Assembly: GCA_000091205.1 (NCBI GenBank)
Contig: AP006495.2
From: Cyanidioschyzon merolae
Taxonomy: Eukaryota
DNA: 64,000 nucleotides
Strand: one strand, 5' to 3'
Shown here: positions 14,839-51,867 of the stretch, one piece after another
Numbering within the stretch: the first letter of the stretch is position 1
Layout: the number at the start of each line of letters is the position of its first letter
The notes under the pieces: generated by a model
Told to the model about the DNA's origin: nothing
Seen by the model: the letters and a program-made list of their open reading frames with translations, nothing else
Databases searched by the model: none
Program-made: the position numbers and the translations under genes

Positions 14839-16651
14839 GTCACCGCGGTCGGTGTTGAGGTTGCACCGCTGTCTCGCTCTGGCGATTTACAGCGGAAAGA
14901 AGCGACCTTGCCACGGATACACTGGGCCGGGCCGCTGCGAGCCGGGCATCTGTCTCTAGCGTAACTACGGGCATTGTCGCCTAGGCGCTACAGGTGAGCA
15001 ATGACCGGCGAAAACAACGATACGACATGCCTGTGTAGTTTTCGCAACCCGAATAACATCATTCGCGAAATGCTCGGGGGAATGTACCTGTTCAAAGAGA
15101 CGAGCGCAACCGTTTCACCTCAATGTGCATGCTCCCTCCGAATCGTTTCGCTGTGCAGGCACCCCATCCTCGCACAGGGACCTGACGCTATCGCATGCAT
15201 AGCCAGAGCATCGCAAGAGCGAACTTGTATGTATGCGGGAAAATCTGGCTTGTGGCCGATGTCCTCTGAACTGATGGTGCGGCATGATGAACCCTTGCCC
15301 GGATGCCGATAACAATTGCGCAATCAGGAATCCATCTGTTCGAGTCATGGATGCTACACCCTCACGCAAGGATTGCACGGATGGCGATACCGCGTGGCAA
15401 TACCGCATGGATAGTGGAATTAGAAGGTGCGTACGTGGCACGATCGCTGCTTTTCCAACCTGTGCAATTCGAAAGGAGCAATCCGTGATCATCGTCACCA
15501 AACAGCATGCAAGAAGAAGTATGGGTTACGGAACTTGGAAATAGAACCTGGGGCATGCTGCATGCTTCGCTGCGCGCCGAAATCAAGCGCCCAGTCAGGT
15601 ACACTGGCCTTTGGGTCAACGTTTCACCAAATAGGAAAAAGTGCAACAAAGCACCCGTGCGTTCCTGCAAGGGATCGCGCAGCACCCGCACTGCAGCGCA
15701 GCGATCCCCCCCGCCGGCGTCATCACCGTCGCTGCGGCATGCGCGCCGCCTCGACGCGGACGCGACGGTGATGCACATGACACATCGAGAGTGGAGCGCT
15801 GCGAAAGTTGCAACACATATCACAACCTCGGGAGCGCTCTTGAACACTGTTACCGCTGCCTTTGAAGTATGTTTGTCACGTCTTTCTTCGGATGCACTAG
15901 CAGTTTACTGGTCGACGGCGGGAAAAGTGCTTGTGCCCAATGCCCGTCGAGCCTGCAAACGCTTCGAATGTCGAAGCACCCGATCCCGAAGGCAACGAAA
16001 AAGCACGTGAAACGGCGGCCGCGAAAGTCCAGCCCAAGTGACAGAAACCGGACGCCTCCAAAGTACGCACTATATGACGTAGTGCCGCCTGAAGAGTATA
16101 CGATAGTTGCGGGTGGAGGGAGCATCCCACCAGAGTTCTTAGCGAAAATCGGTTCACGCAGCAAACGGCGACAAGAGTCTCGAAGCGAGAGGGACAGAAG
16201 CGCTGACGACGCTGATGACGAGACAATGGCGACCGCAACTGAACTGCTTCGTGCGGATGTTGACTAGTTGAAACGCCACGACGTCGAGTGTAGTCGGACG
16301 GTTTCTGCGTATCGAAAGACTTGTCGAGGTCGTAACCAGCTCGGTGTTACACGAAACAAGGCGGTATACATGCAGACTGACCTGTTTACAAGGAAAGCGA
16401 CACTGCAATGGTGAACGTGATGATTCCCTACAAGATGTTGCGTTCAGTCATGGTGCCTTACGGTGTGCGCTGTTCCCGCGCCTGTAGTGCCATGGGGGTA
16501 AACATAGCTTTTGCGCAGAAAGATTCGCGTCATTATGCCAGGAACACCAGCAGTGCTTTCGTTTTGCGAGTAAAACCACGCCGATGAGCCCGTGTCTATG
16601 TAAAACTAGGATACGCACGGTCTACAACGTGTATCACGACGCATAGCGCCG

Positions 16652-18655
16652 GTGCGGATGCCGCTCACGAAACGCTCTGCCAGGAAGTGGAATTACGGGC
16701 ACGTATCTGTAGCGAAAGAGCAGTCTCTGACATTAAACAAGCCAGGTTCTATTCGACATCGTACGTTTGATAAGCTAAGCGAGTTTCATCTGGGATGGTT
16801 ATCGAGGAGCTCACGGCAAACAAAGCAGAATGCCGCCCGACACCAGCCCGACGCCGCTGCGAAGCGAGATCGCGCCTGCGCAGCGGCGGACGTGGTCGCG
16901 TCGCCAAAACACATTGCGCGCCTCTGGCTGGTGGCTTGCAGAGCGCTCGTACCAGGGGAGGCGGGCAGTCACCCAATGGAGGAGTATCGGTTGCCAGACG
17001 TCAGTTTAGTTGTAGAGAGCATTCATTCTAATGAGAAAAAAACGCACGAAGTGGAACTCTATGCAAACTGGAAAGCTAGCACGGAGCCACCGAACGTGGG
17101 GCGCGTGCTGGTCGTGCCGTCAGCACGCTGCCCGTACCGCCTCTTCGATCCGAACATGTACCACACGGCGGTTTGTGCTACTCGTATCACGTTCGCCGAC
17201 GGGGTCAACGGAAAACTGTACTATCGTGGCTACGATGTCGAAGATCTGGTACGCCGAACAGCTGATCCACGCAAGCCTACCGCCACGTTCGAAGAAGTGG
17301 CTTTCCTGCTTATCAACGGCGAACTTCCGGACAGAGACGCGCTCTCGACATGGAAAGAGCTGCTTCTGTCTCACACGTTCCTTCACGAGGATATCCTAGC
17401 ACAGCTTCGAACGTTACGACACGATGCACCGCCCATGGGATGCCTCATCGCAGCGGTGAGCGCCCTGAGCACCTTCCACCCGGAAGCGAATCCCGCCCTC
17501 CGTGGTAGCCAGCTCTATCGCAACGATGAGAAAGCACGGAACAAACAAGTCTACCGCCTTCTGGGGAAAGTAGCAACGATCGCTGCGTGCGTCTGGCGTG
17601 TGCGAATCGGGCGCCAATTCATCCCGCCGCTTTCTGGCGAGCAGGTACGCCCCCGGGAGCGCACGGCCGCTCGAGCTCCAACGGATCGGCAACAAGAGCA
17701 GGAGCCCGGCGATGCCCCCATTGGCTACGTCTCTAACTTTTTAACCATGCTCGACGGATGCCAGCCGAATCCGGTCCTCGTAAATATCGTCGAACGAGCC
17801 TGGATCGTGCTCGCCGACGACGGCCTGAACTGTGCCGCTGGGGTGCTTCGCCACGTGGCGAGCTCTGGCGCGGATCCATACGTATGTGTAGCAACTGCCA
17901 TGGCAGCGATCTACGGACAGCGCATCAGCGGTGTCGGAATGGCGGTGATGCGGATGCTTACGGACATGCACGCGTACCTCAGGAGCACGGGTATGTTGGA
18001 TGAGACCCACGAGAAGCAGCTGTCCTGTCTGAATTCGTATTTGCAGGAGCGTTACATTCTCACAAAGCGACGGCTTCAGGGATTTGGGCACGTGAATTAT
18101 AAGAAATACGATCCTCGAGCGCGGGTATTACGCGAGCTGTGTCTCGAGGCAGAGGCTGCTGTCCAGGAGCCGGAGCCTTTGCTGCAAACAGCGCTTCTTC
18201 TAGAAGAGGTGGTCACGAATAACATCTGGTTCACTTCGCGAGGCGTTTGGCCGAACGTCGATCTATATTTGCCATTGCTTCTTCGTATTCTTGGTCTCCC
18301 GCTTGAATTCTACGCGGTTTTCGTAGCAGTACCACGGACGGCTGGCTGGATCGCTCACTGGCTTGAGCAACTTGACGATGCCGACGTACGCATCTATCGA
18401 CCGCGGCAGCTTTACTCGGGCCCGCCGCTGCGCCCCTACGTACCGATGGAGGATCGAGTCGAGGATGTGCTTTCGTCTTTCGCAGAGGACGGGCAGGATG
18501 CAGGCTCCGACCAAGATGATACCGCGCATGTGCTCCGGGATGGAAACGCACGACGGTATGGAGCAAACCGTCAATGCATGCTCAGAGGCCAGAATGTGCT
18601 CAATCGTATGGTTCGTTCTGTTTCCATCTACCGCAGAAGAAGCTATATTGAATGA
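16652..18655 (+). CDS. citrate synthase (bacterial/peroxisomal type II-like) with N-terminal extension, internal insertion and C-terminal acidic tail
   Basis: LYYRGYDVEDLV, GFGHVNYKKYDPRARVL, and PLEFYAVFVAVPRTAGWIAHWLEQL match GltA-type citrate synthase signatures (GFGHRVYKNYDPRA; ARTVGWIAHW). The first ~110 codons may be a targeting sequence or non-coding. Confidence 0.85.
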   Translation: MRMPLTKRSARKWNYGHVSVAKEQSLTLNKPGSIRHRTFDKLSEFHLGWLSRSSRQTKQNAARHQPDAAAKRDRACAAADVVASPKHIARLWLVACRALVPGEAGSHPMEEYRLPDVSLVVESIHSNEKKTHEVELYANWKASTEPPNVGRVLVVPSARCPYRLFDPNMYHTAVCATRITFADGVNGKLYYRGYDVEDLVRRTADPRKPTATFEEVAFLLINGELPDRDALSTWKELLLSHTFLHEDILAQLRTLRHDAPPMGCLIAAVSALSTFHPEANPALRGSQLYRNDEKARNKQVYRLLGKVATIAACVWRVRIGRQFIPPLSGEQVRPRERTAARAPTDRQQEQEPGDAPIGYVSNFLTMLDGCQPNPVLVNIVERAWIVLADDGLNCAAGVLRHVASSGADPYVCVATAMAAIYGQRISGVGMAVMRMLTDMHAYLRSTGMLDETHEKQLSCLNSYLQERYILTKRRLQGFGHVNYKKYDPRARVLRELCLEAEAAVQEPEPLLQTALLLEEVVTNNIWFTSRGVWPNVDLYLPLLLRILGLPLEFYAVFVAVPRTAGWIAHWLEQLDDADVRIYRPRQLYSGPPLRPYVPMEDRVEDVLSSFAEDGQDAGSDQDDTAHVLRDGNARRYGANRQCMLRGQNVLNRMVRSVSIYRRRSYIE

Positions 18656-41356: not shown

Positions 41357-41420
41357 GTGCTGCTGCTGCTGCGGCGGCGGCAGCGGCGGCAGCGGCGGCA
41401 GCGGCAGCGGCAGCGGCAGC
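41357..41420. repeat. (GCN)~20 trinucleotide repeat (GCT/GCG/GCA)
   Basis: gctgctgctgctgcggcggcggcagcggcggcagcggcggcagcggcagcggcagcggcagcg. It sits between the 3' ends of convergent genes and yields poly-Ala artefact ORFs. Confidence 0.9.
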
Positions 41421-48959: not shown

Positions 48960-49457
48960 GGACAGTTCCTTGGTTTGGGGAGACAGAGACCGACACACCA
49001 TTTTGCGAAGCACCGCAGTAGCTGGAGCGCATTCCTGGAATCGTATTTGACTTGGGCCGCCATCGTGATTGCACTGCACACACCACGCATTCGAGACCCA
49101 GTACCCGATTTTGCCGTGCCAGTCCCATTGGGGAGCTTTTCTTCGAGCTCCCCGCCTGCTAAATCCTTCCAGCTACTCTCATGACACGTCGTTCGAGAGA
49201 GGGCTCGCGCGCAAACGAAATCTTTAGCAGCATCTTGCAATCGGGGACCACCAAGGCATATCTACGGATGCGCTGCTCGGCCAAGTTGCAGTACAAGTTT
49301 GCATGTACACTAGCACTTGATTCAGGCCGAACTTCGACGTACGGGGCACTGTCGCCAACAACCTCATGAATAATTGCGCCGAGTCGTTTTCGAACCGAAT
49401 CTGGAATTGAACGCTCTGACTATGAGGCCTTGGTGCGGGGCGTGCATTTGCGCTGCA

Positions 49458-50308
49458 TCAGCCGCATACGGATGCGTCTTCGACGGCGCAGTCCAGGACC
49501 CGAACTCCTGGTTTGTGTGCTTCGTGGTACATGTAATCATCACGGTTTGTTGAGTAGGGGAAGAGGGGCAGGATTGCCTCGTCATGAATTTCGTTCGTGA
49601 AGTCGGCGAAGCCTACGTAGAACGCAAGCGACCCGGCAATGATCGCGCGTGTTGCTGCCGGGTACTTGACACCACTCGCAAACGTTGTAATGGCCAGCAT
49701 GAGGTATATTAGACCGACGAAAAAGACGGTAAGACTCAAAGCGTACTTCGTTCTCAGTGCCTGGGCACAGAGCATTGGGAAACGACGCAGTAAATTACGC
49801 AGTAAATGAAGGTACCTGCTCTATCGGTTGCGGGGGAGCGACTCGGATTGAGCAGCTCCACCAGAAGCTGTATGTCACGAGCGCCCCAGAATACGCTGTA
49901 GATCGAAAACGCGGTTGCGCAGAACAGGTTATCATATCGGAAACACCACATACCGGCAATGAACTGATCAAGATCGCCAGTGATGAGCGCAACCGCGAAC
50001 AGGTTCTTCGCGGTGGTCCCGTGTAAGTCCACGTCCACGAGAAGCGTCGCGATACCGAACGACCGGAGACCACGTGGCGCCGGATTCGCCGCAGCACTCA
50101 CGTGCTCGACCACGGAAGAGTGCTGCTTGAGCGCGTCAACCAACGGGGACTCGCGAGCCGCTGCGTCACTGTTTGCCGATGAAAAACCTCCGCTTCGTTG
50201 CGCAGCGGCATATGCAGCGAACTTTACGCCCTGATCCAGGCTAGGGACTTCCGTACTGGACCGAAGGGCGTGCGAGAGGGATTCACCAAGTGATTGAAGC
50301 GCAGCCAC
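49458..50308 (-). pseudogene. GPR1/FUN34/YaaH (acetate transporter, AceTr) family paralog disrupted by a frameshift
   Basis: ORFs 50308-49754 and 49775-49458 together align with the downstream paralog: NPAPRGLRSFGIATLL signature, then DRAGTFIY..., then in another frame LCAQALRTKYALSLTVFF.... The junction region is 50 nt where the paralog has 51 nt, a 1-nt deficit. A 12-bp direct duplication tttactgcgta/atttactgcgtc sits at the junction. Confidence 0.55.
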
Positions 50309-50654
50309 TTGCTACTCGAGCTGCTGAGCCTCTGAACGCAGGTTTTCATTTTCCGTTGCCAGTTTATTCCAATAACTCGCCCGTGCACTACGAAGGACCT
50401 ATTACAGGTTCGCGCCACGCGTAAACTACAATACAAAAACTATGGTACGCAGATTATGTTTCCCGAAAGATACATGCATGCCGTATCTGCAGTCGATCGC
50501 ACGGTCGGTGTTGAACGAGATCAATGTGTCCCGGGTACACGACGAAAAGCGTCCTGCTGCTCTTGGCGTGCAGCAGGACGTCCGGGCGTCGAAATGGTAT
50601 CCCATCCGGAACCGAACGCGCCCTCAACTTGGACGCATCGAAATCGTTTTCCCC

Positions 50655-50872
50655 AGTGAACTGCGACTTCGCGTGTCCGCTGCGGAGGCGGAACGTGGGT
50701 TCAGTCCAATACCTTCCATTTCTGTTCTTCTAGGGAGAAAAGTGGCATCTTGGACTTACATCCAGTGAACTGCGACTTCGCGTGTCCGCTGCGGAGGCGG
50801 AACGAGGGTTCGGTCCAATACCTTCCATTTCTGTTCTTCTAGGGAGAAAAGTGGCATCTTGGACTTACATCC
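50655..50872. repeat. 109-bp tandem duplication x2
   Basis: Copies at 50655-50763 and 50764-50872 are near-identical: agtgaactgcgacttcgcgtgtccgctgcggaggcggaacg.gggttc.gtccaataccttccatttctgttcttctagggagaaaagtggcatcttggacttacatcc. Confidence 0.9.
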
Positions 50873-50946
50873 CAGCGCGATTTGCGTTCGTGCACCCCTG
50901 CGATGGTGTATACGGACCCAGGTGCGCAGCGAAATGCTGGCCCTAA

Positions 50947-51867
50947 TCAAACAGGCGGGATATCGACGGCGCTCTTATGAGCATGCGGCCGAGGTACGTA
51001 CCGCTTGCCTTCTTCGTAGTCGCGAGCGTGTCGCGGATGTGGAAACAAAGGAATCAGCGGTTTCTCATATATTTCGTTGGTAAAGTCTGCTAGACCCACG
51101 TAGAAAGCGAGCGATCCGGCGATGATCGCACAAGTCGCTGCAACGTACTTGACGCCCTCCACGTATGCAGTAATTGCTAGGAAAATGTACACGAGGGCGA
51201 CAAAGAATACCGTCGCGCTCAAGGCGTAATTCATTCGCAGTGCTTGAACTAATAGAATCAAGGTCAGGATGCAAAATATCACATAAAAAATACAGGTTCC
51301 CGCGCGATCAGCGGACGGGAAAAGTCCCGGATGGAGCAGCTCCACTAACAGCTGCACGCCACGCGCACCCCAGTATGATCCGAACAGGGAAAAAGCCGTT
51401 GCGCCGAACGTATTGTTCCGCCGGAAACACCACATACCCGCGAGAATTTGTGCCAAACCCCCAATAATGAGCGCCACAGAAAAAGTGTTTTTAGCAGTCG
51501 CACCGTACAGATCAGCACCGGCTAGCAGCGTCGTCACTCCAAAGGCAAACAGACCAAGTGGCGTCGGGTTCGCCACCATACTAGCCAGGGAGATCACCTG
51601 GGACTGTTGCTGTAGCGCGTCCAAGATCTGCATACTGTCTCGATGATGAATTTGCTCCTCTAGAGAAAGGCTCATATTTCGATCGTTTTGCGAATCGAAA
51701 CGCGCAGCCAGGCACTTGTGAGCAGCGCAAGCCTCGAACTCGCGTGCCGCGGCAGCCGCACCCGCCGCTACCTTTTGTTGGAGCGCGGTCACGCGCTCTT
51801 CCAAGAGGCTGATCCTCTCAAGCAAGGAAAGATTTCCCAAGTCCGCGTCGGTCATCAGGAAACGCAA
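50947..51867 (-). CDS. GPR1/FUN34/YaaH family acetate/monocarboxylate transporter (AceTr)
   Basis: Family signature NPTPLGLFAFGVTTLL. Six hydrophobic segments. The N-terminal coiled-coil region LSLLERISLLEERVTALQQK is typical of eukaryotic Ady2/Gpr1-like members. Confidence 0.8.
   Translation of the reverse strand: MRFLMTDADLGNLSLLERISLLEERVTALQQKVAAGAAAAAREFEACAAHKCLAARFDSQNDRNMSLSLEEQIHHRDSMQILDALQQQSQVISLASMVANPTPLGLFAFGVTTLLAGADLYGATAKNTFSVALIIGGLAQILAGMWCFRRNNTFGATAFSLFGSYWGARGVQLLVELLHPGLFPSADRAGTCIFYVIFCILTLILLVQALRMNYALSATVFFVALVYIFLAITAYVEGVKYVAATCAIIAGSLAFYVGLADFTNEIYEKPLIPLFPHPRHARDYEEGKRYVPRPHAHKSAVDIPPV

What the first reader, a model, noticed from the sequence alone, without database searches (positions are those of the whole stretch)
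49458..51867. Tandem pair of acetate-transporter (GPR1/FUN34/YaaH) genes; the second copy is frameshifted at a 12-bp duplication; a 109-bp duplication sits between them
The two same-strand paralogs share the NP(A/T)P(L/R)GL signature and downstream helices. The 49458-50308 copy needs a frame change inside ...DRAGTFIYCVIYCV / LCAQALRTKY.... There the DNA shows a 12-bp direct duplication (tttactgcgta|atttactgcgtc) and a net 1-nt deficit relative to the intact paralog. The intergenic space (50655-50872) is itself a fresh 109-bp x2 duplication. Together these point to an actively rearranging locus: a recent gene duplication with one copy becoming a pseudogene. A sequencing or assembly indel in a repetitive spot is the alternative.
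Basis: seen in the sequence. Interest (0 to 1): 0.5.

Follow-up and report, generated by a model that had tools for sequence, protein, structure and literature searches.

The report
Dead tandem copy of acetate-channel gene
In the red alga Cyanidioschyzon merolae, an intact acetate-channel-family gene sits next to an old, unannotated sister copy that is a real pseudogene (lost start, stop codon, 1-nt frameshift), not a sequencing error; this is an ordinary case of gene decay.

Summary
The window is Cyanidioschyzon merolae 10D, chromosome 13. Two same-strand (minus) Gpr1/Fun34/YaaH genes are present. The downstream copy B has a 1-nt deficit next to a 12-bp tandem repeat. A 109-bp x2 tandem duplication lies between the genes.

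- Copy B is a real pseudogene. Fourteen independent environmental assemblies of about 99%-identical strains carry the identical frameshift with no indel.
- Eight of the 14 add a TAA at the codon for the channel's essential glutamine.
- Population SNPs in B's core are 10 nonsynonymous to 2 synonymous, against 0 to 4 in copy A.
- The gene duplication is not recent. Synonymous sites between A and B are saturated (pS about 0.75) and core amino-acid identity is 58%. B keeps ancestral family residues that A and its orthologues lost.
- Cyanidiococcus and a third lineage have no B at the syntenic site.
- The 12-bp repeat adds no length relative to A, so it cannot be shown to cause the frameshift.
- The 109-bp unit is found only here and appears as one or two copies among strains.

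This is an ordinary finding of low interest.

The parts
50947..51855 (-). Copy A: intact Gpr1/Fun34/YaaH (AceTr) gene, 302 aa. It has a ~90-aa N-terminal coiled-coil extension followed by a 6-TM core. It is C. merolae 10D protein BAM80959.1 / XP_005536995.1 / UniProt M1V8U8.
   Evidence: ORF. PF01184 at 2e-26, 93 bits. Exact match to the NCBI 10D protein. Residues 93-270 align to SatP structures 5YS3/5ZUG residues 5-184, E 2e-17. Population SNPs: 3 nonsynonymous (all in the N-terminal region) and 4 synonymous.
49458..50371 (-). Copy B: non-processed duplicated pseudogene of the same family. It runs from the former start codon to the TGA stop.
   Evidence: PF01184 hits in two frames. 58% aa identity to A over 212 aa after repair. 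The N-terminal remnant aligns with the orthologues' MNNLEAEVKNLR..HLQEQV. No NCBI protein exists for it, and no intact relative was found among 5.8 billion proteins.
50369..50371 (-). Lesion 1: TGG at the position aligned with the initiator Met of the orthologues. The next in-frame ATG lies only after TM2.
   Evidence: Alignment. TGG in the window and in all 14 other assemblies.
50312..50314 (-). Lesion 2: in-frame TAG. It aligns with the E of HLQEQV in the N-terminal coiled coil of the orthologues.
   Evidence: Present in all 15 sequences.
49764..49810 (-). Lesion 3: a 47-nt segment that is 48 nt in A and in both orthologues. This is the -1 frameshift. The exact deleted base cannot be located within the segment.
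   Evidence: The sequence is identical in all 15 assemblies apart from a synonymous GTA/GTG change.
49785..49807 (-). In-frame 12-bp tandem repeat encoding IYCV|IYCV. It occupies the same codons as IFYV|IFCI in A and gives no net length change.
   Evidence: TRF; codon alignment.
49964..49966 (-). CAG codon (Gln, equivalent to the essential Q50 of SatP_Ck). It is intact in 10D but is TAA in 8 of 14 environmental haplotypes: a segregating extra null mutation.
   Evidence: Q50 mapping from the alignment; Q50's role from PMC8379382.
50653..50872 (.). 109-bp x2 tandem duplication in the A-B spacer. In 10D the two units differ at 2 positions.
   Evidence: TRF. The unit is unique to this spot. No Rfam match. 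One copy in L007, L008, L012 and L015; two copies in the window, L001-L006, L016 and L017.

Best explanation
The locus holds an old tandem pair of AceTr (Gpr1/Fun34/YaaH) channel genes on chromosome 13 of Cyanidioschyzon merolae 10D. Copy A is intact and under purifying selection.

Copy B is a fixed, non-processed pseudogene. It has lost its start codon (ATG to TGG). It carries a GAG-to-TAG nonsense mutation in the N-terminal coiled-coil region. It also has a 1-nt deletion in the helix that follows the DRAGT motif.

Inference on timing: the duplication predates, or is about as old as, the split from Cyanidiococcus. B stayed functional, though fast-evolving, for most of that time. It was inactivated fairly recently, but before the present strains diverged. 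It now drifts neutrally and is collecting further null mutations, such as the segregating TAA. The sister lineages have deleted B altogether.

The 109-bp duplication in the spacer is a separate and much younger slippage or unequal-exchange event. It varies between one and two copies among strains. The 12-bp repeat is an in-frame local homogenisation or slippage product beside the frameshift. It is not demonstrably its cause.
For: Shown
- Organism and finished reference: citrate synthase at 16652..18655 is 100% identical to the C. merolae 10D protein on an 866,983-bp contig. That is the length of chromosome 13 in the telomere-to-telomere sequence (PMC1955436). Copy A is an exact match to BAM80959.1.
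- The frameshift is real: 14 independent JGI, ENA and Logan assemblies show 5-16 SNPs per 961 bp and no indel across B. All have TGG, TAG and the same frameshift region.
- An extra TAA is present in 8 of the 14.
- Relaxed constraint: variable codons in B are 11 nonsynonymous (2 of them nonsense) to 5 synonymous. In the TM core the ratio is 10:2 in B against 0:4 in A (Fisher p=0.008).
- B has replaced conserved family residues (NPAPRGL, GD for GG, DNLFC for NNTFG). Only 2 hydrophobic segments pass a threshold at which A shows 6 overlapping windows covering about 5 segments.
- Old duplication: pS(A,B) is 0.73-0.76, and 4-fold-site difference is 0.63, equal to A versus its orthologues.
- No flank homology remains.
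- Long functional phase: core pN is 0.22, far below pS.
- B lies outside the A-plus-orthologues clade: NJ 300/300 bootstraps. All 3 sites with a clear outgroup state group A with the orthologues and B with the outgroup.
- No B in Cyanidiococcus yangmingshanensis (L011) or in a third lineage (L009/L010). Only about 500 bp separate the A orthologue from the RRM gene there, and tblastn finds nothing.
Against: - Transcription and translation of B were not tested.
- The placement of B outside the A clade rests on a distance tree with a long B branch and on only 3 polarised sites. Several residues are shared by A and B only (ELL, DRAG, LAIT, ALI). These could mean a C. merolae-specific duplication, or gene conversion between the neighbours.
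- The estimate that inactivation was recent (few lesions compared with B's total divergence) is an inference, not a measurement.
- The single-copy 109-bp contigs could be assembler collapses. The single unit of L007/L008 is a 5'-proximal/3'-distal chimera, which both unequal exchange and collapse would produce.
- I could not see the GenBank feature table. B may already be marked as a pseudogene there.
Confidence: 0.9

Rival explanations
1. Sequencing or assembly error: copy B is really an intact gene of about 285-300 aa, and the reference lacks one base in a repetitive spot.
For: The deficit lies next to a 12-bp tandem repeat, a context in which alignment or assembly slips can occur.
Against: - The sequence across the site is identical in 14 independent assemblies from different samples and assemblers, in strains 0.5-1.7% diverged.
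- The site is not a homopolymer run.
- Restoring the base would still leave no ATG and an in-frame TAG, plus a TAA in 8 haplotypes.
- The reference was finished to completion (PMC1955436).
Confidence: 0.01
2. One reading: a recent lineage-specific duplication of copy A, with the new copy decaying rapidly from the outset as part of an actively rearranging locus.
For: - B is found only in C. merolae-type genomes.
- One gain is more parsimonious than a gain followed by a loss.
- A few residues are shared by A and B only.
- The nearby 109-bp duplication shows that the spacer is unstable.
Against: - Synonymous sites between A and B are saturated, like those between genera.
- Core pN is far below pS, so B was constrained for most of its life.
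- B keeps ancestral states (the Ala of NPAP, and the residues at SatP positions Y72 and F75) where A and its orthologues share derived ones.
- NJ puts B outside the A clade.
- B shows only 3 fixed lesions despite about 0.22 nonsynonymous changes per site.
Confidence: 0.06
3. Copy B is still expressed as a protein by recoding: programmed ribosomal frameshifting, stop-codon read-through and non-AUG initiation.
For: B's downstream frame is open to a TGA at a position similar to A's stop. The core has kept 58% identity to A.
Against: - It would need three separate recoding events in one mRNA.
- Most wild haplotypes add a TAA at the essential Gln codon and a TGA two codons before the end.
- Polymorphism is mostly nonsynonymous.
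- Charged residues have entered TM1 and TM2.
Confidence: 0.02

Closest known systems
AceTr / GPR1-FUN34-YaaH family channels (E. coli and Citrobacter SatP, yeast Ato1/Ady2, Chlamydomonas GFY1-5)
   Same: - Copy A matches PF01184 well above the gathering score.
- It aligns end to end with the 6-TM SatP structures.
- It has the NPxPLGL motif, the Q50 equivalent, the NTFG motif and an aromatic residue at the Y72 position.
- Copy B derives from the same family.
   Different: - The signature is NPTPLGL in A and NPAPRGL in B, not NPAPLGL.
- The glutamate needed for acetate transport (SatP E57 / Ato1 E140) is Cys in A, B and both orthologues.
- L131 is replaced by Val.
- A ~90-aa N-terminal coiled-coil extension is present.
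- Substrate and membrane location are unknown.
Non-processed (duplicated) pseudogenes next to their functional paralogue
   Same: - Tandem arrangement on the same strand.
- Several disabling lesions.
- A neutral-looking pattern of polymorphism.
- Additional null alleles segregating in the population.
- Complete loss of the copy in sister lineages.
   Different: The host genome is known for very low redundancy (4,775 genes; PMC1955436). The copy died long after the duplication rather than soon after it.

Membership tests
AceTr (GPR1/FUN34/YaaH, Pfam PF01184) | Match to the family profile above the curated threshold | tested here: met
   A scores 93.3 bits against a cut-off of 25. The N-terminal part of B scores 53.4 bits. 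The C-terminal part of B scores 21.9 bits, below the cut-off on its own.
AceTr (GPR1/FUN34/YaaH, Pfam PF01184) | Signature motif NPAPLGL(M/S) (PMC8379382) | tested here: inconclusive
   A and its orthologues have NPTPLGLF, one deviation. B has NPAPRGLR, where the conserved Leu is replaced by Arg.
AceTr (GPR1/FUN34/YaaH, Pfam PF01184) | Six-TM core alignable with the solved SatP channels | tested here: met
   A residues 93-270 align to 5YS3 residues 5-184 of 192, E 2.3e-17. The hydropathy scan gave 6 overlapping windows covering about 5 hydrophobic segments in A and only 2 in repaired B. No 3D model was made.
AceTr (GPR1/FUN34/YaaH, Pfam PF01184) | Pore residues: the F17-Y72-L131 constriction, Q50, and the E57 S1-site glutamate (SatP_Ck numbering; PMC8379382) | tested here: not met
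   From the alignment, A has F, F, V, Q and C at these positions. B has F, Y, V, Q and C, with the Q replaced by a stop in 8 of 14 strains. E57A abolishes acetate transport in SatP_Ck. So acetate transport by copy A cannot be assumed.
AceTr (GPR1/FUN34/YaaH, Pfam PF01184) | Acetate, succinate or monocarboxylate transport activity | not testable with these tools
   Needs an uptake assay or complementation.
Duplicated (non-processed) pseudogene | Homology to a functional paralogue together with lesions that prevent a full-length product | tested here: met
   Lost ATG, an in-frame TAG and a -1 frameshift.
Duplicated (non-processed) pseudogene | Lesions are real rather than artefacts of one assembly | tested here: met
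   The lesions are identical in 14 independent assemblies.
Duplicated (non-processed) pseudogene | Relaxed selective constraint | tested here: met
   Core polymorphism is 10 nonsynonymous to 2 synonymous in B against 0 to 4 in A, p=0.008. Extra nonsense alleles are segregating.
Duplicated (non-processed) pseudogene | No functional protein product | not testable with these tools
   No expression or proteome data could be queried.
Programmed ribosomal frameshift gene | Both frames otherwise intact and conserved, with a start codon and no other stops | tested here: not met
   B has no ATG and carries an upstream TAG. A TAA is polymorphic in the upstream frame.

The most novel reading that the evidence does not exclude
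The locus may catch genome streamlining in progress in one of the most reduced free-living eukaryotic genomes. A long-lived paralogue has recently died. Wild strains now carry different stacked null alleles and a copy-number-variable 109-bp repeat in the spacer. The remnant, or the repeat, which lies between A's stop codon and B, might still be transcribed and might influence expression of the surviving copy A.
Probability: 0.1. Interest if true: 0.35.

Novelty: new member of a known kind. Interest (0 to 1): 0.15.

Why it matters
The main value is for annotation.
- C. merolae 10D has one functional AceTr-family gene at this locus, not two. The dead copy has no protein record in NCBI.
- The live copy is named 'unknown transcriptional regulator', although it is a SatP/Ato1 homologue.
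- The locus is a small, well-documented example of gene loss in a genome often cited for minimal redundancy. Null alleles are still accumulating in natural populations.
- The Cys at the position of the acetate-binding glutamate warns against calling copy A an acetate transporter without an assay.

Tried and rejected
- Intron or alternative start as an explanation. Homology to A runs straight through the shift, and only 0.5% of C. merolae genes have introns (PMC1955436). Rejected.
- Alternative genetic code (TAG read as Gln). The neighbouring long ORFs are free of in-frame stops under the standard code, and the organism is C. merolae. Rejected.
- The 109-bp unit as a dispersed repeat, mobile element or RNA gene. 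There are no other copies in the window or in the loci, and no Rfam hit at E<=1.
- Remnant of B in the distant relatives. tblastn found none. A 26-aa hit in L009 at 15092..15163 lies in frame inside the cryptochrome gene and is a chance match.
- Flank homology to define the ends of the duplication. None found at E<=1.
- dS-based dating. Synonymous sites are saturated for every pair, so it gives only 'old'.
- Search for an intact B orthologue. The protein database search and the metagenome contig scan returned only frameshifted C. merolae-type copies.
- Evidence of transcription from short Logan contigs (L013, L014). I could not tell whether the runs are RNA or DNA.
- Literature on this gene. 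There were no hits for its accessions. Cyanidiales papers discuss only Galdieria's SatP-like permeases.
- The first exact-protein look-up of copy A failed, but the cluster look-up found it.

Full report
**What is there**

Both genes lie on the minus strand. Copy A (50947..51855) is an uninterrupted 302-aa ORF from its ATG. It matches Pfam PF01184 (Gpr1/Fun34/YaaH) at 93 bits. Copy B matches the same family in two frames. One is a 184-aa ORF at 49754..50308 and the other a 105-aa ORF at 49458..49775. A DNA alignment of the two copies shows exactly one 1-nt gap in B within the conserved core, and no 12-nt gap. TRF finds the 12-bp repeat at 49785..49807 and a 109-bp x2 repeat at 50653..50872 with 98% matches.

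**Source organism**

The neighbours are eukaryotic and algal. They include a two-RRM protein, a trefoil-domain protein, a cryptochrome/photolyase, a nuclear gene for a sigma-70-type factor, an LrgB/PLGG1-like protein and Dcp1. The citrate synthase at 16652..18655 is 100% identical to that of Cyanidioschyzon merolae 10D on an 866,983-bp contig. That is the length of chromosome 13 in the '100%-complete' genome, in which only 0.5% of genes have introns (PMC1955436). Copy A is an exact match to BAM80959.1 / XP_005536995.1 (UniProt M1V8U8). NCBI names it 'unknown transcriptional regulator'. Copy B's fragment has no NCBI protein record.

**Is the frameshift real?**

A 99%-identical protein occurs on many metagenome contigs. 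I collected 14 independent assemblies of the locus from JGI, ENA and Logan (L001-L008, L012-L017).
- Across 961 bp of copy B they differ from the window by 5-16 substitutions and by no indel.
- The sequence through the frameshift is identical in all, except for a synonymous GTA/GTG change.
- An assembly or sequencing error is thereby excluded.

**Further lesions**

B's homology to the N-terminal coiled-coil region of the orthologues continues upstream of the 184-aa ORF.
- The codon aligned with the orthologues' initiator Met is TGG (50369..50371).
- The codon aligned with the E of HLQEQV is TAG (50312..50314).
- Both changes are present in all 15 sequences.
- Eight of the 14 environmental haplotypes also have TAA in place of CAG at 49964..49966.
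- That codon corresponds to Q50 of SatP_Ck (alignment). Q50 is reported as essential for acetate transport (PMC8379382).
- All 14 environmental haplotypes, but not 10D, also carry a TGA two codons before the normal stop.

**Constraint**

Among the nine sequences compared:
- Copy A has 7 variable codons: 3 nonsynonymous, all in the N-terminal extension, and 4 synonymous.
- Copy B has 16 variable codons: 11 nonsynonymous, two of them nonsense, and 5 synonymous.
- In the TM core the ratio is 10:2 in B against 0:4 in A (Fisher p=0.008).
- B has also replaced residues that are conserved across the family: NPAPRGL, GD for GG, and DNLFC for NNTFG.
- B has charged residues in TM1 and TM2. Only two hydrophobic segments pass a threshold at which A shows six overlapping windows, covering about five segments.

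**Age of the duplication**

- A and repaired B share 58% identity over 212 aa.
- Nei-Gojobori pS between A and B is 0.73-0.76, which is saturated. It equals the value for A against the orthologue of Cyanidiococcus yangmingshanensis (L011; identified) and of a third lineage (L009/L010).
- No flank homology remains.
- Core pN(A,B) is 0.22, far below pS. B must therefore have been under purifying selection for most of its history (inference).
- An NJ tree puts B outside the A-plus-orthologues clade in 300 of 300 bootstraps.
- At the three sites where the outgroup state is clear, B keeps the ancestral residue while A and the orthologues share a derived one. These are the Ala of NPAP and the residues at SatP positions Y72 and F75.
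- The sister lineages have only about 500 bp between the A orthologue and the RRM gene, and no trace of B.
- The most likely history is an old duplication, loss of B in the sister lineage or lineages, and late inactivation in C. merolae.
- The long B branch and a few residues shared only by A and B leave a C. merolae-specific duplication possible. In neither case is the duplication recent.
- There are only three fixed lesions against about 0.22 nonsynonymous changes per site. This suggests a neutral phase of only a few percent divergence. It is older than the coalescence of today's strains but much younger than the duplication (inference).

**The 12-bp repeat**

In codon register the two units (ATT TAC TGC GTA | ATT TAC TGC GTC) sit on the same eight codons as ATT TTT TAT GTG | ATA TTT TGC ATC in A, and on their counterparts in both orthologues. 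They add no length. The missing base can only be placed somewhere within 49764..49810. The stretch just downstream of the repeat is the most diverged part of the alignment. Short exact tandem runs are common in this window: 18 with period 9-30, against none or one in shuffles for the wider 4-30 test. Adjacency of the repeat and the frameshift is real, but a causal link is unproven.

**The 109-bp duplication**

- The unit is unique to this spot, and the region has no Rfam match.
- Its junctions share a CCAG microhomology.
- The two units differ at 2 positions in 10D and at 1-4 positions in other strains.
- Four contigs from different samples (L007, L008, L012, L015) carry a single unit.
- Copy number varies within both B haplotype groups. 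Repeat variants and B variants are re-assorted among contigs.
- This fits recurrent unequal exchange or slippage, together with recombination among wild haplotypes.
- Assembler collapse cannot be fully excluded for the single-unit contigs.

**Comparison with known families**

Copy A is a member of the AceTr family by profile score and by end-to-end alignment with the SatP structures 5YS3 and 5ZUG. It deviates in three ways.
- Its motif is NPTPLGL.
- It has Val at the L131 position.
- It has Cys at the E57/E140 position, a change shared by B and both orthologues. E57A abolishes acetate transport in SatP_Ck, and E140A impairs Ato1 (PMC8379382).

'Acetate transporter' is thus a family label here, not a demonstrated function. 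Copy B meets every testable criterion for a duplicated, non-processed pseudogene. It fails the criteria for a programmed-frameshift gene.

**Verdict**

B is a real pseudogene in a locus with a young, unstable spacer repeat, but the gene duplication is ancient and the assembly-error alternative is refuted. This is an ordinary example of gene decay. Its value is mostly for annotation of a model genome, and the interest is low.

Noticed in passing
window 50947..51855 (-): Copy A is named 'unknown transcriptional regulator' in NCBI (BAM80959.1), although it is a clear PF01184/SatP homologue. The misnomer may come from its ~90-aa N-terminal leucine-heptad coiled-coil extension. Orthologues and more distant eukaryotic relatives (P0004, P0005) also carry that extension.
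   Followed up: partly
window ~51436..51438 (-), codon for C in GMWCFRR of copy A; the same position in copy B and in L009/L011: [quoted passage not shown] The substrate or mechanism may therefore differ from characterised AceTr channels.
   Followed up: partly
L001-L008, L012-L017 against window 48960..50946: Wild C. merolae-type haplotypes differ by 0.5-1.7%. They show re-assortment between the 109-bp repeat variants and the copy B variants. For example, TAA haplotypes carry either repeat type. This suggests recombination in natural populations.
   Followed up: partly
window 25467, 27519, 30326, 41374-41395, 43204, 53923: Short exact tandem repeats of period 9-16 are frequent in this window: 18 runs, against essentially none in shuffles. 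Many fall inside long ORFs, for example the cryptochrome gene and the region near the trefoil-protein gene.
   Followed up: no
window 49964..49968, 49875..49876, 49750..49752: Several differences between haplotypes in copy B are clustered multi-nucleotide changes. One is GATCAG to GGTTAA, three changes within 5 nt. They do not match copy A, so gene conversion from A does not explain them.
   Followed up: partly
window 16652..18655 (+) and L011 / Cyanidiococcus CCYA09G2549 versus CCYA09G2558: In Cyanidiococcus yangmingshanensis the locus tags of the citrate synthase and the A orthologue are nine numbers apart on one chromosome. Both genes also lie within this window. Synteny therefore appears conserved between C. 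merolae and Cyanidiococcus.
   Followed up: no
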